Under the pieces are notes generated by a model. It saw only the letters and a program-made list of their open reading frames with translations, was not told the origin of the DNA and made no database searches. This document shows, in pieces, positions 4,992 to 25,671 of a stretch of 27,414 bases of DNA (the stretch's first letter is position 1; each line of letters starts with the position of its first letter). A program made the position numbers and the translations under genes. Origin of the DNA: Dehalococcoidia bacterium (GTDB lineage Bacteria > Chloroflexota > Dehalococcoidia > DSTF01 > RBG-16-68-14); contig JBBDNH010000131.1 in the NCBI GenBank assembly GCA_040877745.1, forward strand, positions 1-27,414. The letters are read 5' to 3'.

Positions 4992-6104
4992 ATGATCTCG
5001 AAGACCGAGCTAGAGCGGCTGGCCGCCCTGCGCAGCGACGAAGGGATCGTGTCCGTCTATATCGGGATCGAGCCGCGCCTGCGCTATGACCGTGGCCAGC
5101 ACGAGGTCAAGTTCCGGGGCGCCACGAAGCGCTTCGAGCGGACGGCGGACGAACACGCGCGGGCCGTCCTCGAACGCGAGACCGGCGCGATCCTCGACCT
5201 CCTTGGCGAGACCGAGCCAGCGGGACGCGGCCTGGCCGCCTTTGTCTCCAGCCCGGCCGGCATCCGGGAACTGGTCCATCTGGACGTCCGCGTCCCAACC
5301 TGGATCGACGCCGGGGCGTCCACCAACGTCGGCCTGCTCGCACAGGTGGTAAATGAGTACCCGCGCTGGGTCGTCGCCGTTGTGCAGCGAGACCAGGCCA
5401 CGCTCTACTACAGTGAACAGGGCCATGCCGAGGAAGCGGGCGGCATCGAGAGCAGCGTGCCGGGCAAGCATGACCAGGGAGGCTGGGCTCAGGCTCGCTT
5501 CCAGCGCCACATCGAAGTCCACGTGGAGCGCCACCTGGAGAAGGTCGACGCGCTGCAGGAGCTGCAGCGCGAGCGGCCGTTCAGCCACCTCGTCCTGGCC
5601 GGCACCGGCGCGCCGGTAACCGAGCTGCGCGAGATGCTTCCAGGCCCCCTGCAGAGCCTCGTCATCGGCTCCGTGCCCGTGGATTTCAAGCACGCCTCGG
5701 AGGACGAGATCCTGGAACAGGCTCGCGCCGTGCTTGTGGACGAACAACGTCGCGTGGAGCGCGAGCTGGTGGAACAAGTTGTCGATGCCGCGGAGAGCGG
5801 TGGCCAGGGCGCCGCCGGTTTCGACGACACGTTGGCCGCGTTGCACGAAGGCCGGGTCCAGACGCTGCTCGTCGCCGAGGGCATCACCGAGGAAGGCTCG
5901 AGTTGCCTGGACTGCGACTACCTCGCGACGAGCCGCTTCGAACGATGCCCGCGTTGCGGCGGCGAAGCCGAGGCCTCGACCGACGTCGTGGAGCGCGCCA
6001 TCGACCGGGCGCTTCTGTCGGGCGCGCGCGTCGAGGTGGTCCTCGGCGAGGCGCGCGAGTGGCTGCTGGCGCGCGGCGGCATAGGCGCCGTCCTCCGGTA
6101 CTAG
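4992..6104 (+). CDS. Bacterial archaeo-eukaryotic release factor (baeRF, eRF1/Pelota-like; probably baeRF10 type with Zn ribbon)
   Basis: eRF1 middle-domain-like GKHDQGGWAQARFQRH; C-terminal domain LHEGRVQTLLV...GARVEVV...GGIGAVLRY; inserted CxxC-CxxC (CLDC...CPRC). Confidence 0.85.
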   Translation: MISKTELERLAALRSDEGIVSVYIGIEPRLRYDRGQHEVKFRGATKRFERTADEHARAVLERETGAILDLLGETEPAGRGLAAFVSSPAGIRELVHLDVRVPTWIDAGASTNVGLLAQVVNEYPRWVVAVVQRDQATLYYSEQGHAEEAGGIESSVPGKHDQGGWAQARFQRHIEVHVERHLEKVDALQELQRERPFSHLVLAGTGAPVTELREMLPGPLQSLVIGSVPVDFKHASEDEILEQARAVLVDEQRRVERELVEQVVDAAESGGQGAAGFDDTLAALHEGRVQTLLVAEGITEEGSSCLDCDYLATSRFERCPRCGGEAEASTDVVERAIDRALLSGARVEVVLGEAREWLLARGGIGAVLRY

Positions 6105-9099: not shown

Positions 9100-9105
9100 C
9101 TCACA

Positions 9106-10461
9106 CTACACCTGCTCGAAGTAGCGGCGCTTCTCCCAATCCGTGACGGCCTTGCGAAAGGCCTCGACCTCCCAGCGGCGCATCGCCGCGTACTGCTCGA
9201 CGAACGCGTTCCCGAAGTACTCGCGCGCCGGCTCGCTCGCCTCGAAGCGCTCGACGGCCTCCGATAGCGTCCTCGGCAGCCCGGGCGCCTCGACCGCGTA
9301 CGCGTCGCCCTCGACCGGCTCCGGCGGCGCGAGCTCCCGCTCGAGGCCGTAGAGGCCGCCGGCGAGCGACGCTGCCAGCCCCAGATAGCCGTTCACGTCC
9401 GCGCCGGGCACGCGATTCTCGATGCGCGTGGCGGACGGCGAGCCCGCGATCGCGCGCAGCGCCGCCGTCCTATTCTCGAAGCCCCACGTCAGCGTCGTGG
9501 GCGCCCAGCTCCCCGCCACGAAGCGTTTGTACGAGTTCACGTTCGGTGCGTACAGCAGCATGAACTCCGGCAGCGTCGCCAGCACGCCCGCGGCGTACGA
9601 GCGCATCAGCTGCGATGCATGGTGCGGCGCATCGGCGTCGTAGAAGGCGTTGCGCTCGCCGTCCGGCGACCAGAGGCTCTGATGGAGGTGTCCGCTGCAA
9701 CCGTCCAGCCGGTCGTCGTACTTGGCCATGAACGTCGGGACCACGCCGGACTGCGCTGTGATCTCCTTCGCGCCGCTCTTGTAGAGCAGCGCGTTGTCGG
9801 CGGCCGTGAGCGCGCCGGCGTAGTGCAGGTTGACCTCGTACATCCCTTCGCCGTGCTCGCGATTATATCCCTCGACCGGCACGCCGAAGTCGACCATCAT
9901 CTTCCGGATCCCGCCCACGAGCTCTTCGTCGAGCGTCGCGTGGTGCAAGCTGTAGCAGTTCAGGCCCAGGCTGAGCGGCTCCAGGTCGCGATAGCCCTTC
10001 GCGCGCAGGCTCTGCTGGTCCTCACGGAACAAGCGCACTTCCAGCTCGACGGCCATGCGCGCAAGATATCCCGCGTCCGCCGCGCGCTCGATCACGCGCC
10101 GAAGGACGTGCCGGGGAGAGACCGCGAGCGGCTCTCCAGCCTCGGTTTCATAATCGCAGATCACGGCGGCGGCGCCGGGCTCCCACGGCACGGGCCGGAA
10201 CGTCGCCAGGTCCGGCCGCATGATGATGTCGGCGAAGCCGGTCTGCGCGCTGCCGACAGGCAGCCCTTCGATGAGCTGCTCCCCGATGTCCCAGCCGAAG
10301 ATGACGTCGCACTGCGGGAAGCCGACGCCCCTGCACCCTTCGACGAACTGCGCCGACAGCACCCGCTTGCCGCGGAAGACGCCGTCCATGTCGGCGCCGC
10401 CCACCTTCACCACCTCGATGCCGCGCTCGGCGATCAGCCGTTCGACCGTGGGGAGATCCAT
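9106..10461 (-). CDS. Glutamine synthetase family protein (gamma-glutamyl-amine ligase-like rather than GSI)
   Basis: ATG at 10461 with SD GGAGGG; DMDGVFRGKR, EHGEGMYEVNL, TFMAK...GCSGHLHQSL, NSYKRF, RIENRVPGADVNGYL. Confidence 0.88.
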   Translation of the reverse strand: MDLPTVERLIAERGIEVVKVGGADMDGVFRGKRVLSAQFVEGCRGVGFPQCDVIFGWDIGEQLIEGLPVGSAQTGFADIIMRPDLATFRPVPWEPGAAAVICDYETEAGEPLAVSPRHVLRRVIERAADAGYLARMAVELEVRLFREDQQSLRAKGYRDLEPLSLGLNCYSLHHATLDEELVGGIRKMMVDFGVPVEGYNREHGEGMYEVNLHYAGALTAADNALLYKSGAKEITAQSGVVPTFMAKYDDRLDGCSGHLHQSLWSPDGERNAFYDADAPHHASQLMRSYAAGVLATLPEFMLLYAPNVNSYKRFVAGSWAPTTLTWGFENRTAALRAIAGSPSATRIENRVPGADVNGYLGLAASLAGGLYGLERELAPPEPVEGDAYAVEAPGLPRTLSEAVERFEASEPAREYFGNAFVEQYAAMRRWEVEAFRKAVTDWEKRRYFEQV

Positions 10462-18764: not shown

Positions 18765-19111
18765 GGGGACGAAAGGCTTCGACAGGGAAGCGTTTATCTG
18801 AGGTGCAGGCCGAGCGGTCGCTCTCGCTAAACGGCGGCAACCATTTACTTGGCGAACGTGAATTCGCCCTCGCTGCCTAACTAGGTAGTGACGTCGCCCA
18901 CATCCTCACCCCGGCGGGCTGTGGTGCGGCGACGATCAGCCGGGGTGCTGCGGTTTGACGCCGATACTGACCGCCTAAGACCCATCGGCTTAGTTCGGAG
19001 AGCCGGGCCGGCGACGACCCACCGGACGAGCACCAAACGCCGGACACGCCTGTAGTACCTCAGCCTGGCCCTTTTCTGGACGGGGAGTTCGATTCTCCCC
19101 CGTCTCCACCA
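18765..19111 (+). ncRNA. ssrA: tmRNA (transfer-messenger RNA), one-piece
   Basis: 5' GGGGACG pairs with 3' CGTCTCC-A-CCA (includes the G3-U pair); T-arm GGGAG-TTCGATT-CTCCC; helix 2 TGAGGT/ACCTCA and GCAGGC/GCCTGT; PK1 CGAG/CTCG plus GTCGC/GCGGC. Confidence 0.96.
18851..18880 (+). other. tmRNA tag reading frame: (A)GEREFALAA*
   Basis: GGC resume codon 12 nt after PK1; ends LAA-TAA, the typical protease-recognition tail. Confidence 0.8.
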
Positions 19112-19296
19112 ACACCAACACCAACGGCCGGGCCGACCGCGCGCCGGGCCGGCCGCTATCTCACGACGTGACGGGGAGTTCGATTCTCCCCCGTCTCCAC
19201 CAACACCAACACCAACGGCCGGGCCGACCGCGCGCCGGGCCGGCCGCTATCTCACGACGTGGACGGGGAGTTCGATTCTCCCCCGTCTCCACCAAC
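19080..19296 (+). repeat. Tandem amplification of the tmRNA 3' end: three copies of a 34-bp T-arm/acceptor segment, unit 91-92 bp
   Basis: ACGGGGAGTTCGATTCTCCCCCGTCTCCACCAAC at 19080-19113, 19171-19204 and 19263-19296; the two intervening segments are identical except for one extra G. Confidence 0.95.
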
Positions 19297-19306
19297 CCGA
19301 CCACGC

Positions 19307-19350: not shown

Positions 19351-19389
19351 TGCGTTTGAGCGCGAATAGCTTCATGATGCGTTGCTACG

Positions 19390-19426
19390 CACACGATGCA
19401 GACTTAGTGTGACCTGTTACCGTGTA
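19390..19426. repeat. 37-bp direct repeat, copy A
   Basis: CACACGATG-CAG-ACTTAGTGTGACCTGTTACCGTGTA; matches 21595-21631 except for 3 central bases. Confidence 0.95.
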
Positions 19427-19510
19427 GGCAGTACCGCTCCAGTCCCTGCGCGGCCACGGCCACAACCGCGGGGCTAGCGCGCGGCCACGGCTCTCGCCTA
19501 TCCTTCCGAT

Positions 19511-20194
19511 ATGCCAACCTATGTCGGCTTGCTGGAAGCAGACCTGCAGGCGGCAGCCGAGTACACCACGGGCGGCATCGGGCCGTTCTTCAAGCAAACC
19601 CGCCGTGAGGAGCCCTTCGAGCTGCTCGACTTTCTGACCCGCTCGGCGGTCGCGCTGCACAAGCTCGGCATCGTCACCGCAGTGACCCTCTTCGTCGACG
19701 AACAGGAGATCTATGGCGCGGAAGACGAGGCGAACCGAGACACGCTGAACGCGGCCCTCAACGCCGCTCGCTCCACTGACCTTGTCGGAGCGAACGAGTT
19801 CTATCTCCTGCTCTGGTACCAAGACAAGGACTTCTCCCACGTCTTCAGCATCGAAGCGAGCGTCGACCACCCCGCGGATGAGGCCGCGCTCACCGTCCTC
19901 GACGTCGCCACGCCGCTGGCAGACGCCGACACCGAGGACACCGAAGGCAGCGAAGAAGGCCTCGCCTCGGAGCACGAGGACCCGCTTGCGCCCGACGACA
20001 GCGAGTCCACGGATTACGACAAGAACCTGGACAGCATCGAACTGATCGAGGGCTTTCTCGGCCGGGTGCTCGACGAGCTGAAGAGGGAACTGGCCCTCGT
20101 GGAGCCAGAGATCGACGTGTGGATCGATTGGGAGGGCGCGTACGCCGGGCAGGGCTACGGCAGCAGCGCGCTCCCGGGCCTGCCCGGGCTGTAG
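19511..20194 (+). CDS. Hypothetical acidic protein (227 aa)
   Basis: Host-like codon usage; very Asp/Glu-rich; TATCCT 6 nt before the ATG and no SD (leaderless-type start). Confidence 0.75.
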   Translation: MPTYVGLLEADLQAAAEYTTGGIGPFFKQTRREEPFELLDFLTRSAVALHKLGIVTAVTLFVDEQEIYGAEDEANRDTLNAALNAARSTDLVGANEFYLLLWYQDKDFSHVFSIEASVDHPADEAALTVLDVATPLADADTEDTEGSEEGLASEHEDPLAPDDSESTDYDKNLDSIELIEGFLGRVLDELKRELALVEPEIDVWIDWEGAYAGQGYGSSALPGLPGL

Positions 20195-21397
20195 TCACCT
20201 CGTCTTGAACTGCTCGGCCTCCCCGGATCCCGACGTGGTGTCGCCCGCGCTGTACGAGTGGGCGCCCGCGCCAGCGAGCTTGCCCTTGTCAGCGATCAGG
20301 TACTCCTCGCGAATCGGCCGTCCATCAAACCAGCACTCCAGGATCTCCCGTACGCCGGCTGCGTAACGGGACTGCGCCGAGAGCGACGTGCCAGATACGT
20401 GGGGCGTCATGCCGTGGTTGGGCATGGAACGCCACGGGTGGTCCTTCGGCGCCGGCTGAGGGAACCAGACGTCGCCCGCGTACCCGGCGAGCTGCCCGCT
20501 TTCCAGCGCGCGGACAATCGCATCGCGATCGCAGATCTTGCCGCGAGCCGTATTCACCAGGTATGTCCCACGCTTCATCTTCGCGATCAGCGCGTCGTTG
20601 AACATGTGCTCTGTCTCCGGGTGGAGCGGCGTGTTGATCGTGACTACATCGCAGACGGCGACGAGCGCCTCAGCGTCTGGGTGAAAGGTCAGGTCTAGCT
20701 CCCGCTCGATGCTCTCCGGCAGGCGATGCCGATCCGTGTAGTGCAGCTTGACCTCGAACGGCTTGAGCCGCCGCAGGACCGCCGTGCCGATGCGCCCGGC
20801 GCCGACGGTGCCGACGGCCATGCCTTCGAGATCGTAGGACCGCGCGACGCAATCGGCGATGTTCCAGCCACCCTCGACCACCGTCCGGTAGGAAGGAATA
20901 TAGTTCCGCACCAACACGAGGATCATCATCACCACGTGCTCGCTCACGCTGATGCTGTTCGAATAGGTCACCTCGGCAACGGTGAGCCCCTTCTCACACG
21001 CCGCCTGCAGATCGACGTGGTCCGAGCCGATGCCGGCCGTGATCGCCAGCCTGAGGTTCGGCGCCTTCGCTATCCGCTCGGCCGTGAGGTAGGCCGGCCA
21101 AAACGGCTGCGAAATGACGATGTCCGCCGTCGGCAGCTCACGCTCGAAGACGCTATCCGCTCCGTCTTTGTCGGACGTGACCGTGTAGCTGTGGCCTTGT
21201 CCCTCCAGGAACGCGCGCAGCCCGAGCTCGCCCGACACGCTACCGAGGAGTTCTCCAGGCCGGAAGTCGACAGCCTGAGGTGACGGCAATGTTTGGCCGC
21301 CGGGGTAGCCGTCGATGGTAGGTATCTCGTCGCGCGCGTATGAAGTCGGGTAACCGTCGGCGGGATCGTCGTACAGCACACAGAGTACGTTCGCCAT
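20195..21397 (-). CDS. fdh: NAD-dependent formate dehydrogenase (D-2-hydroxyacid dehydrogenase family)
   Basis: ATG at 21397 (MANVLCVLYDDP) after SD GAGGAG; GELLGSVSGELGLR, TAGIGSDHVDL, GAGRIG...YTDRHR, AGDVWFPQPAPKDHPWR, TPHVSG. Confidence 0.95.
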   Translation of the reverse strand: MANVLCVLYDDPADGYPTSYARDEIPTIDGYPGGQTLPSPQAVDFRPGELLGSVSGELGLRAFLEGQGHSYTVTSDKDGADSVFERELPTADIVISQPFWPAYLTAERIAKAPNLRLAITAGIGSDHVDLQAACEKGLTVAEVTYSNSISVSEHVVMMILVLVRNYIPSYRTVVEGGWNIADCVARSYDLEGMAVGTVGAGRIGTAVLRRLKPFEVKLHYTDRHRLPESIERELDLTFHPDAEALVAVCDVVTINTPLHPETEHMFNDALIAKMKRGTYLVNTARGKICDRDAIVRALESGQLAGYAGDVWFPQPAPKDHPWRSMPNHGMTPHVSGTSLSAQSRYAAGVREILECWFDGRPIREEYLIADKGKLAGAGAHSYSAGDTTSGSGEAEQFKTR

Positions 21398-21481
21398 GTC
21401 TTCGCTCCTCGGGGGTCTGCCAAGCAATGTTTGCTGGTAATGATACTCCGCCCGGGCTGGCCGTGGCACCCAAGGCATCGC

Positions 21482-21525
21482 AGAAAAGAAGAGAGGCCCC
21501 GTGCAGTGGCGGCTACACGGGGCCT
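21482..21525 (-). terminator. Intrinsic terminator on the minus strand, upstream of fdh
   Basis: 10-bp perfect stem (plus-strand arms AGGCCCCGTG 21494-21503 and CACGGGGCCT 21516-21525) followed on the minus strand by CTCTTCTTTTCT. Confidence 0.8.
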
Positions 21526-21643
21526 ACGCGAGGGTAAACCTCACGCACCTGTACTGTAGCGCCTAGCCCTTACCGACGGCAAAGGAACGCCGTCCACACG
21601 ATGGCAACTTAGTGTGACCTGTTACCGTGTACGGCCCCGTGTA
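21514..21643 (-). ncRNA. Candidate structured RNA (unassigned family), 130 nt
   Basis: Closing stem TACACGGGGCC/GGCCCCGTGTA (11 bp) encloses hairpins GGTAAC/GTTGCC, GACGGC/GCCGTC and GTGAGG/CCTCGC; wobble pairs are valid only on the minus strand. Confidence 0.45.
21595..21631. repeat. 37-bp direct repeat, copy B
   Basis: CACACGATG-GCA-ACTTAGTGTGACCTGTTACCGTGTA; partner at 19390-19426. Confidence 0.95.
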
Positions 21644-22023
21644 CTTGCTCTCCTAGCCTCCAACGGGACGATCCCCTCTCGAAGTTGCGCGGTGTAGTGG
21701 AGGCTCGCGAGCCAGTCGAAAAGCCGGTCGCCGTCCTCTTTGAACGCCTCAAGCGCTAGTACGAGCGCGCCTTCAACGCAGTGCCAATAGTCGGCGCGAT
21801 ACACTCCCCAGGACTCGTACGATAGAGGCCAGGCGAGATCGCAGACGGGGACACCTTGCAGCCGCCGGCGCAGGAAGCGACGTAGCGCCGGCAGAGTGGC
21901 GTTGACCTCTACGCTTGCTACCAGAAACGAACCCCGGGGAACCTCAACCTCGACGACGAGGGGCTCTCGAAGGGGCCACAGATCCGACGAATAGACCCCA
22001 CAATAGACGTCATCGACGGTCAT
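21622..22023 (-). CDS. Hypothetical protein (133 aa)
   Basis: ATG with AAGGA SD; stop codon lies inside repeat copy B; no recognised domain. Confidence 0.55.
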   Translation of the reverse strand: MTVDDVYCGVYSSDLWPLREPLVVEVEVPRGSFLVASVEVNATLPALRRFLRRRLQGVPVCDLAWPLSYESWGVYRADYWHCVEGALVLALEAFKEDGDRLFDWLASLHYTAQLREGIVPLEARRASTRGRTR

Positions 22024-22087: not shown

Positions 22088-22483
22088 TTAGCTCGCCGAC
22101 GCCAGCGCGAGGGGCGGGTGAGCGAACTCGATCACCAGCGTGTGATTACGTAGCTCGAACTTCGTCACGGTCTCGTTGTGCTCGGCGTCGCCCTTCCACT
22201 TGATGGTGACCCGCTGGTCGGTGTCGAGCTTGCCGAGTGCCCAGCGGAGCATCGACTCGACCGCCTCTACGTGAAGGGGCGGCCAGCCTGAGATCACTTG
22301 ACGAAGGCCTTCGGCAACGCCTGGCTTGCCGAACTTCTCGCCGACTTCCTTGCCGATGTCCGCGATCTCGTCCCCCGCTTCGAGGCGGGCCAGGATTTCG
22401 TGGCCATCGTTAAGAATCAGGGCGGTACCGAACACTTGGTTCAGCAGCTCCATTGACTGCGCGCATGTAATTAGGTCTGCCAT
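22088..22483 (-). CDS. Hypothetical protein (131 aa)
   Basis: Strong SD AGAGGAGGAG; globular-protein-like composition; divergent from the ATPase-LuxR gene. Confidence 0.78.
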   Translation of the reverse strand: MADLITCAQSMELLNQVFGTALILNDGHEILARLEAGDEIADIGKEVGEKFGKPGVAEGLRQVISGWPPLHVEAVESMLRWALGKLDTDQRVTIKWKGDAEHNETVTKFELRNHTLVIEFAHPPLALASAS

Positions 22484-22730
22484 CAGCTCCTCCTCTTTTA
22501 GGGCCGCGCCGTACCGGCGAAGCCCCGGCCAGGGGAAGCGAGCCGACTCGAACGGCGCGTGCTATATTGCCTTCCTACCAGCGCCCGTGTCGGCGAGCCA
22601 CCTCGGATCCTCACGGCCAGGTCTCGCAGCCACATCCTCTATCGCCGCCGGGCCGGCTACATGCGGGGAATCACCCAATATTCGAACGCGAGGGGCCGTA
22701 AAGGCGCGCGCGTCATGCGGGGAGGGAGCA

Positions 22731-25553
22731 ATGAAAGATGTCTTTGTTGGTCGTCAGCCTGAACTGACCAGCCTTACCGGCCTCCTAAACGATGAAGACC
22801 ACAGAACCCGATCAGCAATCGTGACCGGGGAGGCTGGAATCGGCAAGAGCAGGTTGGTCGTAGAGTTCCTCGATCGCGCCAAGCTGCAAGGCTTCAGGGT
22901 GTTGCGGGGATGCTGCTACCGTGCTCGCCAGGCTGGAGCGTACTTTCCCTTCATTCAGGTTCTCTCTCAATTGCGCCTGGCTAGCCCCGCGGTGGAGTTT
23001 CTGGAGGTCATGGCCCGAGACCTTCTCGCAGGCACGGACTGGTCCGAAGCGAGCGACGAGGTGCGACGACACACGGGTGACTTCTTGCGCGTGCTCAGCG
23101 ATTCGATTCTGGAGCAGACCTCGTCCGGCCGGACCGTTCTCAGCCTAGAGGACCTCCATTGGGCAGACACTGGATCCCTCCTCCTGCTCAACAACCTCTT
23201 GGACGTGCCCTCCTCCTGCCTGATCATCGTTGGCACTGCTCGTTTGGAAGAGGCGATGAGTTCAGAACGACGTCAGCTCCTCGCTGCAGCGCAGGACAAG
23301 GCCGCAAGCATCAGGCTCTGCAATCTGACAGTTGGTGACACTCGCACGCTCGCCGCTGCCCTCTCGGGTCGGGGCAGCATTACGTCGGAGGAGATCGACG
23401 TGCTTCACTCGCTGACAAACGGCAACGCGCTATTCGTCCGGGAACTCTTGAAGCACTTGAACGATACCGGCTTGCTGAGGAGGCATCGACTGCCAGAGGC
23501 TATTCGGTGGGGCGGAACCCCGGAGCGGCTGGCGCATGCCATCGATCTCCGGCTCTGCCGCCTTCCCCACAAGGTTCACCGCACGTTAGCGGCATGTGCG
23601 GTGTTAGGGACCGACTTCGCAACAAGGTTCATCGCGGAGGCAACAGGAGACAGCGAAGAGGTGATCGCGACTGGAATTCAAGAGGCTGCAGCCGAGGGCA
23701 TCGTGCGTGCCACCGATTCGCTGGCATCGCCTCGATTCGACTTCACGCACTCTCTCTTCGCTAGCCGGATCTACGACGGACTACCACTCGCCACACGGCG
23801 ACGACTGCACCGCAACTTCGCCAGGGTCGAGGCGCGCGACGAGCTGACTCTCGCAGATCTCGCACGCCACTATGCCCTGGGTTTCGGGGCTTCGGGCGGA
23901 AAGGAGGCCATCAATGCCTGCCGGCTAGCTGCCGAGCAAGCAGAGGGAATCTTGGCCTTCGAAGCAGCCGCCCAATGCTGGGAGTTCGCGCTGGCATGCA
24001 CGAGGACTGGCGCCCACTCTGTCAGGGCGGAACTGTATCGCAGACTTGGGTTGGCGCTTTGGGCGTCAGGCCGTTGGGACTCGGCGATCGAGGCTTGGAC
24101 AGAGGCTGTCCGCCTGTTCGAGCTCCTCGGCAAGTCGCAGGAGGTGGGCGAGGTTGCGTTCCGTCTGGCGCAGATCCATCGGTGGCGGAACGAGTTCGCG
24201 GACACGCAGCTCTGGCTCGGGCGCGCGCTTGATTCTCCTTTGCAGGCCGTGGACAGGGCGAGAGCCACGGCTCTACAGGCGAGCATCGCCGTTCGGGATC
24301 GGCCTGAGGATGCGCTGGGAATGCTGAGCGGCGCTGACGGCCTGTTCGAGGATAGCGGACGGGACCCTGTTGTGGCATTCTGGCTCTCTCAAAGCTTCTC
24401 CACCGCCGGGAATCCCGACCGGGCCCACGCCCTCGCAAAGGCAGGGTTCGAGGAGGCACAGGGACGGGGCGCGGCCCGAACAGCAGCACTCCTTGCCGCG
24501 AGCCTGGCCACCCATGCGCTCTGTCGTCTCGACATGCGAGCGGCACGCACGTATGTCGACGTCGTACAGAGCGCTGCGGATCCGAACGACCCGCCAACAC
24601 TCATCCGGTCGCTCTTATCCCAGGCATACCTCCTGGGCTACACCGGGAGGTGGCGGCGGCTCGCCCGGTCCTGCGGCCAGTGGATGGCACAGGTCCGCCT
24701 CGCTTCGCCATATCAGGTGGCCACCGCACGTCTCGTTTGGGCTGAAGCCCAGTTCGCCCTGGGTGAACATGGGGCGGCGGAACGCGAGATGCTCCGGGTC
24801 CTTCCAATGAAGGAGATCCAAGCTGTTGTAGCGATCCACCTCGCCAGGGTCGTGCTCGCACTCGGGCGGAGCGATGAGGCGGCGGAGCTGGTCCATCGAA
24901 TGTCGCAAGTCGTGCTGGAGACGCCTCACGCCGCAGCCGGCCGTGCGGTGCTTGGGGAGGTCGTTTCCCAGCTCGACATGTCGAAGCTCCAACAGCGGTG
25001 CTACAGCGCACTTGTCAAGGAAGAACGAGCTGTCGTCATGACGTACTCGCCAATCTCGGTCCAGCGTGTCCTGGGCCGATTAAGCAGTAGCCTCAGGCTT
25101 TGGGCAAAGGCGCGCGAACACTTCGATACGGCGGTCACGCAGCTTGCAGAAGGCGGCGCGCGCTGGGAACTGGCGATGACCTATTTCGACTACGCCGCGA
25201 TGCAGCGGGCACGACGGAGTCGAGGGTTCGGCGGGCGCGCGGCCGCGCTGGAGTTGCTAGCCGCGGAGCAGCTGCGCAAGCTTCGCATTGAGCCGTCGCG
25301 GCGAAATCACCATGCCGAGTTGCCTGCTCTTGCTAACCGATTCTCGCTCACGGGTAGGGAGTTGGAGGTATTGTCGATGGTCTCGGCGGGGCTGCGCAAC
25401 CAGGAAATCGCCGCGTCGTTGACGCTCAGTCTGCGGACCGTCGAACGCCATCTGGAGAACATCTTCTCGAAGATGGGCGCGAGCAACAGGACGGAGGCGG
25501 TCATATTAGGCGTGAGGGTAGGCCTGCTCGGGCCGGCTGCAGGTGCCGGCTAG
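22731..25553 (+). CDS. STAND-type ATPase - TPR - LuxR HTH transcriptional regulator (MalT/LAL-like)
   Basis: ATG at 22731 after SD GGGGAGGGAG (track start 22326 overlaps another gene); FVGRQPEL, Walker A GEAGIGKS, Walker B LSLEDLHWAD, TNGNALFVREL, C-terminal LTGRELEVL...GLRNQEIA...SLRTVERHLENIFSKMG. Confidence 0.92.
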   Translation: MKDVFVGRQPELTSLTGLLNDEDHRTRSAIVTGEAGIGKSRLVVEFLDRAKLQGFRVLRGCCYRARQAGAYFPFIQVLSQLRLASPAVEFLEVMARDLLAGTDWSEASDEVRRHTGDFLRVLSDSILEQTSSGRTVLSLEDLHWADTGSLLLLNNLLDVPSSCLIIVGTARLEEAMSSERRQLLAAAQDKAASIRLCNLTVGDTRTLAAALSGRGSITSEEIDVLHSLTNGNALFVRELLKHLNDTGLLRRHRLPEAIRWGGTPERLAHAIDLRLCRLPHKVHRTLAACAVLGTDFATRFIAEATGDSEEVIATGIQEAAAEGIVRATDSLASPRFDFTHSLFASRIYDGLPLATRRRLHRNFARVEARDELTLADLARHYALGFGASGGKEAINACRLAAEQAEGILAFEAAAQCWEFALACTRTGAHSVRAELYRRLGLALWASGRWDSAIEAWTEAVRLFELLGKSQEVGEVAFRLAQIHRWRNEFADTQLWLGRALDSPLQAVDRARATALQASIAVRDRPEDALGMLSGADGLFEDSGRDPVVAFWLSQSFSTAGNPDRAHALAKAGFEEAQGRGAARTAALLAASLATHALCRLDMRAARTYVDVVQSAADPNDPPTLIRSLLSQAYLLGYTGRWRRLARSCGQWMAQVRLASPYQVATARLVWAEAQFALGEHGAAEREMLRVLPMKEIQAVVAIHLARVVLALGRSDEAAELVHRMSQVVLETPHAAAGRAVLGEVVSQLDMSKLQQRCYSALVKEERAVVMTYSPISVQRVLGRLSSSLRLWAKAREHFDTAVTQLAEGGARWELAMTYFDYAAMQRARRSRGFGGRAAALELLAAEQLRKLRIEPSRRNHHAELPALANRFSLTGRELEVLSMVSAGLRNQEIAASLTLSLRTVERHLENIFSKMGASNRTEAVILGVRVGLLGPAAGAG

Positions 25554-25671
25554 GCTCTACACTTTGCCACCATAGTGTCACACTTGAGAGTCGAGTTACA
25601 GTCTGCTCCGGGCTCGGGAACATCCGCCATAGCGTTGGTTGCGCTAGGCGAGTTATACTTTCGTTTCGGGG

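What the first reader, a model, noticed from the sequence alone, without database searches (positions are those of the whole stretch)
19359..21643. Two homologous structured elements with an identical core and hairpins replaced in place: candidate new ncRNA or ssDNA-hairpin family
Seen: a 37-bp near-identical core at 19390-19426 and 21595-21631. On the minus strand it folds as ACAC-GGTAAC[AGGTCACACTAA]GTTGCC-ATC-GTGT, and copy A keeps the stem with a bulge shift. Similarity continues structurally after sequence identity ends. Each core is followed by a hairpin of different sequence (A: TGCGT-AGCA-ACGCA; B: GACGGC-8nt-GCCGTC), then exactly 7 nt, then GCTA-n(1-3)-GCGCT (19370-19359 and 21567-21558). 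Several stems contain G-U pairs that become C-A mismatches on the plus strand, which points to selection on a single-stranded minus-strand fold. I could not match it to riboswitch, ribozyme, 6S, SRP, RNase P or omega-RNA consensus sequences I remember. Inference: a repeated structured RNA or ssDNA element with an invariant 12-nt loop that could be a protein-binding, ligand-binding or guide segment.
Basis: partly seen in the sequence, partly recalled or inferred. Interest (0 to 1): 0.8.

Follow-up and report, generated by a model that had tools for sequence, protein, structure and literature searches.

The report
Recombination-type sites bounding gene modules
The two near-identical 37-base repeats are most likely not a structured RNA but copies of a lineage-specific DNA site, built like a recombinase target, that marks the joints between swappable gene modules next to the tmRNA gene in a family of uncultured Dehalococcoidia.

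Summary
The repeat is real: 19390-19426 and 21595-21631 are 34/37 identical, direct, and the only two copies in this 71%-complete sediment MAG. The proposed minus-strand fold is not supported. Folding energies equal those of shuffles (z -0.4). In 11 homologous copies the stems show no compensatory change, and the inner helix pairs in only 53% of cells. Rfam finds nothing.

In 42 copies from relatives the conserved unit is a DNA site: ..CAC[T/G]AT, a 6-bp centre (CCCCAC or GCAGAC), then TTAGTGT[G/C]ACC. This is an 11-6-11 inverted repeat like dif or lox. One subfamily adds TGTTACCGTGTAG.

A 682-bp block, 99.4% identical in two unrelated contexts, starts with the right half of the site and ends with the left half. 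The crossover therefore lies within ACTTAGTG. Sites on a contig are co-oriented, lie next to tmRNA or tRNA-Gly 3' fragments, and run CCCCAC-type, cargo, GCAGAC-type in 7 of 7 arrays. Cargo varies and holds no recombinase.

Best reading (about 0.6): att-like sites of recombinase-less modules arrayed beside ssrA and moved by an enzyme encoded elsewhere. That enzyme is unidentified, and no excision product was seen. It is a new variant of a known kind (dif modules, IMEX, CIME, integron-like arrays).

The parts
18765..19111 (+). tmRNA gene (ssrA); the array of sites begins downstream of it
   Evidence: ARAGORN; Rfam RF00023, 121.8 bits
19168..19304 (+). Two further tandem copies of the last 45 nt of tmRNA, at a 91/92-bp period. 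They look like footprints of ssrA-targeted integration.
   Evidence: the repeat finder families D1 and D2
19387..19427 (+). Site A: left arm ACGCACACGAT (19387-19397), centre GCAGAC (19398-19403), right arm TTAGTGTGACC (19404-19414), extension TGTTACCGTGTAG (19415-19427). It is 'attP-like': a GCAGAC centre joined to the conserved right extension.
   Evidence: R1 score 53.1 bits
19410..21614 (.). Module 1, between the inferred crossover points of A and B. It holds an acidic 227-aa ORF with no family match (19511-20194, +) and NAD-dependent formate dehydrogenase (20195-21397, -).
   Evidence: Pfam; NCBIfam NF005750, 700 bits. fdh is 80-88% identical at nucleotide level in 6 relatives, each in an unrelated context.
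21490..21530 (.). GC-rich hairpin (GGCCCCGTG..CACGGGGCC) between fdh and site B. It is a separate short repeat found in unrelated places across most genomes of the family. It is not part of the site.
   Evidence: inverted repeat I6; matches to query 2181-2255 across the family's genomes
21591..21631 (+). Site B: left arm GTCCACACGAT (21591-21601), centre GGCAAC (21602-21607), right arm TTAGTGTGACC (21608-21618), extension TGTTACCGTGTAC (21619-21631)
   Evidence: R1 score 49.4 bits
21615..25577 (.). Candidate module 2. It holds two small unassigned ORFs on the minus strand (21622-22023, 22088-22483) and a 1075-aa AAA_16-TPR-LuxR(GerE) regulator (22326-25553, +).
   Evidence: Pfam; NCBIfam. Its right boundary depends on the weak site C.
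25555..25582 (+). Candidate site C (weak): CTCTACACTTT-GCCACC-ATAGTGTCACA, in the intergenic gap just after the LuxR-type gene and in the same orientation as A and B
   Evidence: 2 mismatches to the core pattern. Third-best R1 match in the window, but only 5.5 bits, E 0.45.

Best explanation
A and B are copies of a lineage-specific double-stranded DNA recombination (att-like) site. The core is two imperfect inverted arms of about 11 bp (..CAC[T/G]AT and TTAGTGT[G/C]ACC) around a 6-bp centre. In this subfamily a conserved 13-nt right-hand extension (TGTTACCGTGTAG) follows.

The sites mark the joints between gene modules that carry no recombinase of their own. These modules sit in co-oriented tandem arrays in the plastic regions next to tmRNA and tRNA-Gly genes of one family of GC-rich Dehalococcoidia.

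In the window the order is: tmRNA, three copies of its 3' end, site A, module 1 (acidic protein and formate dehydrogenase), site B, module 2 (LuxR-type regulator), and possibly a degenerate site C. A and B have the form expected at the junction of two elements integrated in tandem: the left half of one element's site joined to the right half of the next.

Shown: the site family, its architecture, its co-orientation, its association with tRNA/tmRNA fragments, and one block whose two ends fall exactly inside the site.

Inferred: strand exchange happens within ACTTAGTG, at or near the edge between the centre and the right arm. Inferred: a recombinase encoded elsewhere catalyses it. The architecture favours a tyrosine recombinase of the Xer or integrase type. 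The order-wide large serine recombinase is the second candidate.
For: (1) The core is conserved in other genera of the family at non-orthologous places. The 24-mer matches with 0-3 mismatches in G058, G066 (3 copies) and G071, and in 4 metagenome contigs. Searches across the class gave only chance-level hits.

(2) A 682-bp block is 99.4% identical between G058 (L008:3732-4413) and contig L023, with unrelated DNA on both sides. It begins ..ACTTAGTG|TGACCTGTTACCGTGTAG and ends ..CACGATGCAGACTTAGTG|. Joined end to end it would recreate site A. The same block start sits behind two further, different upstream contexts (L010, L022).

(3) In 42 unique copies, arm pairs 2, 4, 5 and 6 are almost invariant and the right arm is better conserved than the left. 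The centre varies (CCCCAC 17 times, GCAGAC 9 times). There are no compensatory changes, and a G.A mismatch at pair 3 occurs in 13 of 42. This fits protein-read half-sites and does not fit a selected hairpin.

(4) All sites on a contig point the same way, and the same way as the adjacent tRNA-Gly 3' fragments or tmRNA, in 8 of 8 arrays. The order CCCCAC-type, cargo, GCAGAC-type holds in 7 of 7 arrays.

(5) Family f5 has a related pair of sites in the same order around 2.85 kb and 9.4 kb of different cargo.

(6) Cargo is diverse and holds no recombinase.

(7) Distance and orientation to neighbouring genes are inconsistent, which argues against a promoter or operator.

(8) Candidate recombinases encoded elsewhere exist. 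Relatives have two Xer-like tyrosine recombinases each; only one was found in this incomplete MAG. A single-copy 469-aa large serine recombinase is kept in 87 of 93 genomes of the order.
Against: No recombinase is adjacent to any site, and none has been tied to the site. No clean occupied-versus-empty pair of loci was found. Logan contigs of four sediment runs show no A-B deletion joint and no circle joint, though contigs drop rare variants.

Only one block (seen in 2 full and 2 partial contexts) has its boundaries demonstrably in the site. Highly similar genes (fdh, the VOC-family gene) also sit in different contexts without sites, so gene flux here is not only site-mediated.

Centres differ between partner sites, which classical tyrosine recombination does not tolerate unless only one strand pair is exchanged. 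Site C is weak (E 0.45). The site does not match the dif consensus. In single-contig G089 it lies about 0.76 Mb from dnaA in a 3.2-Mb genome, not opposite it.
Confidence: 0.6

Rival explanations
1. The site is a short palindromic repeat of the REP/MITE kind, recognised as a DNA hairpin by an HUH (Y1) transposase or similar. The block boundaries arise from transposition next to hairpins, or from homologous recombination between dispersed copies, not from conservative site-specific recombination.
For: The core is a 7-11-bp inverted repeat that could fold as a hairpin. Every genome checked carries several Y1_Tnp genes: 5 in G000 and 7 in G066. The block ends exactly at the 3' foot of the hairpin, as right ends of IS200/IS605 elements lie close to theirs (general knowledge of that family).
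Against: Copy number is very low: 2-3 in G000 and at most about 10 per genome. All copies on a contig are co-oriented, whereas REPs occur in both orientations. No copy lies near a Y1_Tnp gene in G000. The arm mismatch G.A is kept in 13 of 42 copies without compensation. The left end of the block has no matching hairpin of its own.
Confidence: 0.15
2. The site is the operator of a dimeric DNA-binding regulator (a small regulon). Its presence at block boundaries is secondary, from recombination between repeated operators.
For: The 11-6-11 inverted repeat with sequence-conserved arms is typical of dimeric helix-turn-helix operators. Two sites lie 85-110 nt upstream of genes (site A before 19511; the G066 site before a LuxR-hydrolase gene). 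LuxR-type regulators occur in two of the modules.
Against: A 24/24 identity across genera at non-orthologous loci is far tighter than operators usually are. Orientation and distance to the next gene are inconsistent, and several sites face gene 3' ends or convergent genes. The ordered CCCCAC-to-GCAGAC pairs, the co-orientation with tRNA/tmRNA fragments and the half-site logic of the 682-bp block have no explanation under this reading.
Confidence: 0.1
3. One reading: a structured non-coding RNA, or a single-stranded DNA element selected on the minus strand, with an invariant 12-nt loop.
For: Copy B can be drawn as a 10-bp interrupted stem. There is no known family match, so novelty is not excluded. 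Copy B lies about 200 nt upstream of fdh on the minus strand.
Against: z-scores are -0.4. There are 0 covarying pairs, and 10 of 11 copies break two of the six inner pairs. Copy A has no minus-strand gene downstream. fdh homologues in 5 of 6 relatives lack the element. No RNA run holding the locus was available.
Confidence: 0.04
4. A decayed local duplication or chance similarity with no function.
For: There are only two copies in this genome, and the flanks are unrelated.
Against: 0 matches are expected by chance. The same sequence is conserved in 3 other genera and 4 metagenome contigs.
Confidence: 0.01

Closest known systems
dif modules / pdif (Xer) sites of Acinetobacter plasmids and chromosomes, and IMEX elements that exploit XerCD (PMC6449649, PMC12907356)
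   Same: Both have short sites of 11-6-11 architecture with one arm better conserved. Both bound discrete gene modules that lack their own recombinase, carry diverse cargo, and form arrays of modules. The recombinase is supplied by the host.
   Different: The sequence does not match the dif consensus: no ATAA-N6-TTAT was found in the genome or family. By my recollection of that literature, plasmid dif modules are flanked by oppositely oriented sites; here the sites are direct repeats. The sites lie beside tmRNA/tRNA-Gly and not at the replication terminus. Xer involvement is untested.
Integron gene cassettes and attC sites, including CALIN arrays without an integrase
   Same: Both show co-oriented sites between cassettes. 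In both, a cassette starts with the last bases of the site and ends with most of it, so that a circle recreates the full site. In both, the crossover lies at the start of the second inverted arm.
   Different: No integron integrase is present (TIGR02249 at most 83 bits against a 265-bit cut-off). The arms are not RYYYAAC/GTTRRRY. The site is 22-40 bp without L boxes or extrahelical bases. Modules hold 1-3 genes in either orientation with their own promoters, and the end sites are hybrids (attL/attR-like).
Dehalococcoides ssrA genomic islands and cis-mobilizable elements formed by accretion (McMurdie et al. 2011, PMC3146451)
   Same: Same class of bacteria. Both form tandem arrays of islands directly downstream of the tmRNA gene. 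Both include repeats of the ssrA 3' end, islands without an integration module, and tRNA-Gly-like sequences associated with the islands.
   Different: There the island boundaries are 20-bp repeats of the ssrA 3' end, and the integrase is the island-borne serine recombinase DsiB. Here the module boundaries are a different, palindromic site unrelated to ssrA, and no integration module lies in the window.
Attachment sites of large serine recombinases (phage and SCCmec type)
   Same: The full 37-45-bp form has a second, outer imperfect dyad (ACACG..GCAAC / GTTAC..CGTGT). Its centre (TTAGTG|TGACCT) coincides with the inferred crossover. A 469-aa large serine recombinase is a core gene of the order.
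   Different: That recombinase is never next to a site, and its distribution (all five families) is wider than that of recognisable sites. Most copies keep only the inner 11-6-11 repeat, which is the tyrosine-recombinase pattern.

Membership tests
Known RNA family (Rfam) | Match to a covariance model at or near the gathering score | tested here: not met
   No hit over either copy at the gathering threshold or at E up to 10.
   0 of 10 pairs have changes on both sides. Helix 2 is paired in 53% of cells. The covariation score is 0.000 against a shuffled mean of 0.009.
Integron attC / gene cassette | Integron integrase (IntI) in the genome | tested here: not met
   TIGR02249 best score is 83 bits against a 265-bit cut-off in G000, G058, G066 and G071. 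The hits are Xer-like proteins. G000 is only 71% complete.
Integron attC / gene cassette | R'' RYYYAAC and R' GTTRRRY core sites, L boxes, length about 55-140 bp | tested here: not met
   The arms are CACAC[T/G]A and TAGTGTG. The site is 22-40 bp with no second pair of boxes.
Integron attC / gene cassette | Co-oriented sites; a cassette carries the end of one site at its start and the bulk of the site at its end | tested here: met
   Boundaries of the 682-bp block. Co-orientation in all arrays.
Xer (dif-like) site: IMEX / dif module | 28-bp architecture: 11-bp arm, 6-bp centre, 11-bp arm, with one arm better conserved | tested here: met
   Tabulation of 42 sites. The f5 variant GGTCACACGAT-GCCGTC-ATAGTGTGACC is almost perfectly symmetric.
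Xer (dif-like) site: IMEX / dif module | Sequence match to the dif consensus (..ATAA-N6-TTATG..) | tested here: not met
   No such sequence in G000. Family hits are at control level and the shared one is a promoter-like sequence. Published Dehalococcoides dif predictions are unlike it.
Xer (dif-like) site: IMEX / dif module | Location at the replication terminus | tested here: not met
   In single-contig G089, dnaA is at 3.00 Mb and the site at 2.24 Mb of 3.20 Mb. The window's GC skew turns from minus to plus near 22 kb, the wrong polarity for a terminus. Both tests are weak.
Xer (dif-like) site: IMEX / dif module | XerC/XerD-type recombinases present and acting on the site | not testable with these tools
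   Relatives have two Phage_integrase proteins each at E about 1e-50; one was found in G000. Activity needs an experiment.
tRNA/tmRNA-targeted genomic islands and CIMEs (Dehalococcoides ssrA-GI type) | Tandem elements directly downstream of ssrA or a tRNA gene | tested here: met
   tmRNA is followed by the array in the window. G066:C170 has tmRNA and then a site 780 nt on. tRNA-Gly 3' fragments lie within 4-55 nt of sites in six loci.
tRNA/tmRNA-targeted genomic islands and CIMEs (Dehalococcoides ssrA-GI type) | Element boundaries are direct repeats of the 3' end of the target gene | tested here: not met
   A and B share no sequence with the tmRNA 3' end. The three tmRNA-end copies lie upstream, 91 bp apart, with no cargo between them.
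Large serine recombinase att site | Recombinase gene adjacent to the site on the element | tested here: not met
   PF00239 hits are on other contigs or far away in all 10 genomes checked.
REP / RAYT system | Many copies, both orientations, copies flanking the Y1 transposase gene | tested here: not met
   There are 2-3 copies in G000, all in the window and all co-oriented. None lies near the 5 Y1_Tnp genes.

The most novel reading that the evidence does not exclude
A chromosomal gene-cassette system without an integron integrase exists in Chloroflexota. A family-specific 11-6-11 site lets a host-encoded recombinase insert, excise and shuffle recombinase-less modules in arrays anchored beside the tmRNA and tRNA-Gly genes. 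The recombinase would be a Xer-type enzyme or the order-wide single-copy serine recombinase. Cargo includes formate dehydrogenase, regulators, hydrolases and transporters.
Probability: 0.3. Interest if true: 0.75.

Novelty: new variant of a known kind. Interest (0 to 1): 0.55.

Why it matters
Dehalococcoidia of sediments are uncultured, and little is known about how they exchange metabolic genes. Outside Dehalococcoides itself, no cassette-like exchange system has been described for them as far as I could find.

If these sites are active, they define a simple marker that can be searched for: a 28-40-bp site. That marker would delimit mobile modules in MAGs and explain why genes such as fdh sit in a different context in every genome. 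It would also point to a host recombinase with a second job.

The result also removes a false lead. There is no new riboswitch or ncRNA upstream of fdh here.

Tried and rejected
Rfam at gathering and at E up to 10 found nothing on the elements.

Single-sequence folding of both strands gave z about -0.4 to +0.5.

Integron integrase model: below cut-off.

Canonical dif search in the own genome and the family: none. The one shared hit is promoter-like. Published Dehalococcoides dif predictions are unlike the site.

Terminus test: the window's skew has the wrong polarity. 20-kb skews around four relatives' sites were noisy, with one of four switching plus to minus. dnaA distance in G089 is not antipodal.

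Tyrosine, serine and Y1 recombinase genes: none adjacent to any site.

Plasmid and phage collections: no match. IMG/VR pattern scan: only chance hits in low-GC contigs.

Synteny of site contexts across genera: none.

Empty-site search around the G058 element: the PALP-ThiF side is syntenic in 8 genomes, but the side facing the element is variable everywhere, so there is no clean empty site.

Public runs: only Logan contigs were available. X1 contigs run straight through A and through B, and there is no A-B joint. This is no evidence against rare excision.

The REP-like reading of the f5 repeats was rejected. The repeated flank there is the 3' end of a paralogous gene on the other strand.

The earlier-findings index has no look-alike in other windows.
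Full report
THE OBSERVATION

The window is a whole 27.4-kb contig of a 1.94-Mb, 71%-complete MAG. Its relatives are Chloroflexota/Dehalococcoidia MAGs, and the runs that hold it are sediment metagenomes. The genome is 68% G+C.

The repeat is real. 19390-19426 and 21595-21631 are 92% identical. The inner 24-mer is identical, with 0 chance matches expected in shuffles, and these are the only two copies in the genome. Outside the 37-mer the two places do not align.

IS IT A STRUCTURED RNA?

Rfam finds only the tmRNA and a tRNA in the window, and nothing on the elements even at E up to 10. Both strands of both copies fold no better than dinucleotide shuffles (z -0.40, -0.38, +0.53, -0.33).

None of the 10 pairs has a compensatory change. 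The 5' side is invariant, and the 3' side varies and breaks the pairs. The inner helix is paired in 53% of cells. The G-U argument for strand selection does not survive more sequences.

Copy A has no minus-strand gene downstream. Most fdh homologues in relatives lack the element.

WHAT THE HOMOLOGUES SHOW

The 24-mer occurs with 0-3 mismatches in three other genera of the same family (G058, G066 with 3 copies, G071) and in none of 77 genomes of the order's other four families. A sample of 401 genomes of the class gave only control-level hits. Four metagenome contigs also carry it.

In G066 two copies lie 2225 bp apart around different cargo: a LuxR-hydrolase fusion and an alpha/beta hydrolase. 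A third copy lies 780 nt downstream of that genome's tmRNA gene.

The key result is a 682-bp block that is 99.4% identical between G058 (L008:3732-4413) and contig L023, with unrelated DNA on both sides. The block begins inside the site (..ACTTAGTG|TGACCTGTTACCGTGTAGCCC..) and ends ..GGCAGCACGATGCAGACTTAGTG|. The right half of the site is therefore at the start of the block and the left half at its end. Circularised, the block would recreate site A of the window.

The two left junctions differ from each other upstream of ACTTAGTG, and the two right junctions differ downstream of it. The exchange point therefore lies within those 8 bases. The same block start follows two more, different upstream sequences (L010, L022). 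The block holds one 120-aa VOC/glyoxalase-family gene.

THE SITE

A sequence-only model of the 11 copies found many weaker matches in 14 of 16 genomes of the family. Most of them match only the left two-thirds of the model.

From 42 unique copies the common unit has three parts. The left arm is ..CAC[T/G]AT. The 6-bp centre is CCCCAC in 17 copies, GCAGAC in 9, and others, nearly always ending in AC. The right arm is TTAGTGT[G/C]ACC.

Arm pairs 2, 4, 5 and 6 are almost invariant Watson-Crick pairs. Pair 3 is T-A in 23 copies and an uncompensated G.A in 13. The outer pairs are about 40-50% complementary. The right arm is better conserved than the left. This is the 11-6-11 layout of dif, lox and similar core sites.

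The window's copies belong to a subfamily with a further conserved TGTTACCGTGTAG. A related, almost perfectly symmetric variant (GGTCACACGAT-GCCGTC-ATAGTGTGACC) occurs in family f5. Recognisable sites are found in f1 (11 of 15 genomes), f2 (2 of 2) and f5 (2 of 21), and in none of 54 genomes of f3 and f4.

ARRANGEMENT

Every contig with several sites has them in one orientation.

The sites also point the same way as the nearby tmRNA gene or tRNA-Gly 3' fragments. Those fragments lie 13-19 nt before a site (G059:C42, C6, C4) or 4-55 nt after one (G068:C59, G066:C11, L023).

In 7 of 7 arrays a CCCCAC-type site comes first and a GCAGAC-type site follows the cargo, like attL and attR of an integrated element. 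In f5 the order GCCGTC, cargo, GACCAA is the same in two genomes around 2.85 kb and 9.4 kb of different DNA.

Site A (GCAGAC centre plus the conserved right extension) and site B (GGCAAC centre plus the extension) have the composition expected at the joint of two elements lying in tandem.

A third, weak site in the same orientation lies at 25555-25582, just after the LuxR-type gene. It has 2 mismatches to the core and is the third-best model hit in the window, but at only 5.5 bits and E 0.45.

Cargo between sites is diverse: NAD-dependent formate dehydrogenase (700 bits to NF005750), LuxR-type regulators, hydrolases, a DEAD-box helicase, an MFS transporter and DUF58. It contains no recombinase.

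fdh itself is 80-88% identical at nucleotide level in six relatives. In each it sits in a context with no DNA or protein similarity to the others. In G059 it sits alone between a tRNA-Gly fragment plus site and a second site.

MECHANISM

The half-site logic of the block, the ordered hybrid-type sites, the co-orientation and the tRNA/tmRNA setting together point to conservative site-specific recombination. That recombination would insert circular, recombinase-less modules and build tandem arrays.

Because the centres of partner sites differ, exchange must occur at the right edge of the centre. One possibility is a single strand exchange resolved by replication, as described for some Xer-dependent elements (general knowledge of IMEX biology). 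The other is exchange at the centre of the longer outer dyad (TTAGTG|TGACCT), as a serine recombinase would do.

The enzyme is not identified. There is no integron integrase, and no tyrosine, serine or Y1 recombinase gene lies next to any site.

Two candidates are encoded elsewhere in the genome. The first is the Xer-like proteins, two per relative and one found in this incomplete MAG. The second is a 469-aa large serine recombinase that is single-copy and vertically conserved in 87 of 93 genomes of the order. That count includes the unpublished genome G025, and the claim does not depend on it.

The site is not the chromosome's dif by three tests. It does not match the consensus. The window's skew has the wrong polarity. 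In single-contig G089 the site is 0.76 Mb from dnaA in a 3.2-Mb genome.

LIMITS

No excision product was seen in Logan contigs of four runs. No clean empty site was found. Only one block has both ends demonstrably in the site. Similar genes also move without sites.

I therefore put 0.6 on the recombination-site reading, 0.15 on a REP/HUH-type hairpin repeat, 0.1 on a regulator's operator, 0.04 on the RNA reading and 0.01 on a decayed duplication or chance. The remaining 0.1 is unassigned.

COMPARISON AND NOVELTY

In how it works, the system is closest to dif modules and IMEX elements (PMC6449649, PMC12907356) and to integron cassette arrays. In setting, it is closest to the tandem ssrA islands and cis-mobilizable elements of Dehalococcoides (PMC3146451).

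It fails defining features of each. It has no IntI and no attC boxes. It has no dif consensus and no terminus location. Its boundaries are not repeats of the ssrA end. I file it as a new variant of a known kind, with the enzyme open.

Noticed in passing
window 19077-19304: The last 45 nt of the tmRNA gene occur three times in tandem at a 91/92-bp period, with identical 46-nt spacers and no cargo between them. This resembles stacked att footprints of ssrA-targeted elements as in Dehalococcoides (PMC3146451), but the cause of the exact tandem amplification is unexplained.
   Followed up: partly
window 21480-21555 (hairpin 21490-21530): A GC-rich hairpin (GAGGCCCCGTG..CACGGGGCCT) is repeated at 83-92% identity in unrelated places across most genomes of the family, up to 5 copies in one genome and 2 in G000. 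It is a dispersed terminator-like or REP-like repeat and not an fdh-specific attenuator, because fdh homologues in relatives lack it.
   Followed up: partly
G000:C4:3575-4981 (locus L126), minus strand: A 469-aa large serine recombinase (resolvase, recombinase and zinc-ribbon regions) is single-copy and vertically conserved in 87 of 93 genomes of the order. Identity is 73-80% within the family and 53-63% outside it. A core-genome serine recombinase is unusual, and its target is unknown.
   Followed up: partly
window 20195-21450 and loci L077-L082: The fdh gene and about 45 nt of promoter-like upstream sequence (on the minus strand, GGCGGTATAATC-like) are 80-88% identical across 7 genomes of at least 5 genera. 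Neighbours differ in every genome. This suggests repeated transfer or relocation of a single-gene unit.
   Followed up: partly
L008:2568-2983 versus G071:C92:45515-45930; L008:3733-3799 versus G071:C62 end: G058 and G071, placed in different genera, share stretches of 100% nucleotide identity that end at contig ends. This indicates very recent transfer of mobile DNA or cross-binning between MAGs that appear to come from one project.
   Followed up: no
L070:2050-2110, L073:5650-5715, L071:6948-6996, L072 around 9100-9150, L081:1313-1355, L084/L085 (G060:C3): About 45-nt 3' fragments of tRNA-Gly(CCC), running from the anticodon stem to the CCA end, are scattered beside the sites and beside tyrosine integrase genes. 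They mark tRNA-Gly as a second integration hotspot in this family.
   Followed up: partly
L008:3128-3167: A 40-nt sequence is 97-100% identical in five other places in four genomes of the family (G058:C107, G070:C70, G059:C109, G059:C172, G060:C2). It is another short dispersed repeat of unknown nature.
   Followed up: no
L112 (G089:C1:2233200-2253190) and L113 (G091:C1:464400-484390): In family f5 each palindromic site abuts the stop codon of a member of a paralogous gene family on the other strand. The shared 3' end reads ..GCTGCTGAAGGCGTAA, and several further paralogues lie nearby without a site.
   Followed up: partly
window 4992-6104: A 370-aa protein of the bacterial eRF1-like (baeRF family 10 / acVLRF1) release-factor group lies a few kb upstream of the tRNA-Gly and tmRNA region.
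   Followed up: no
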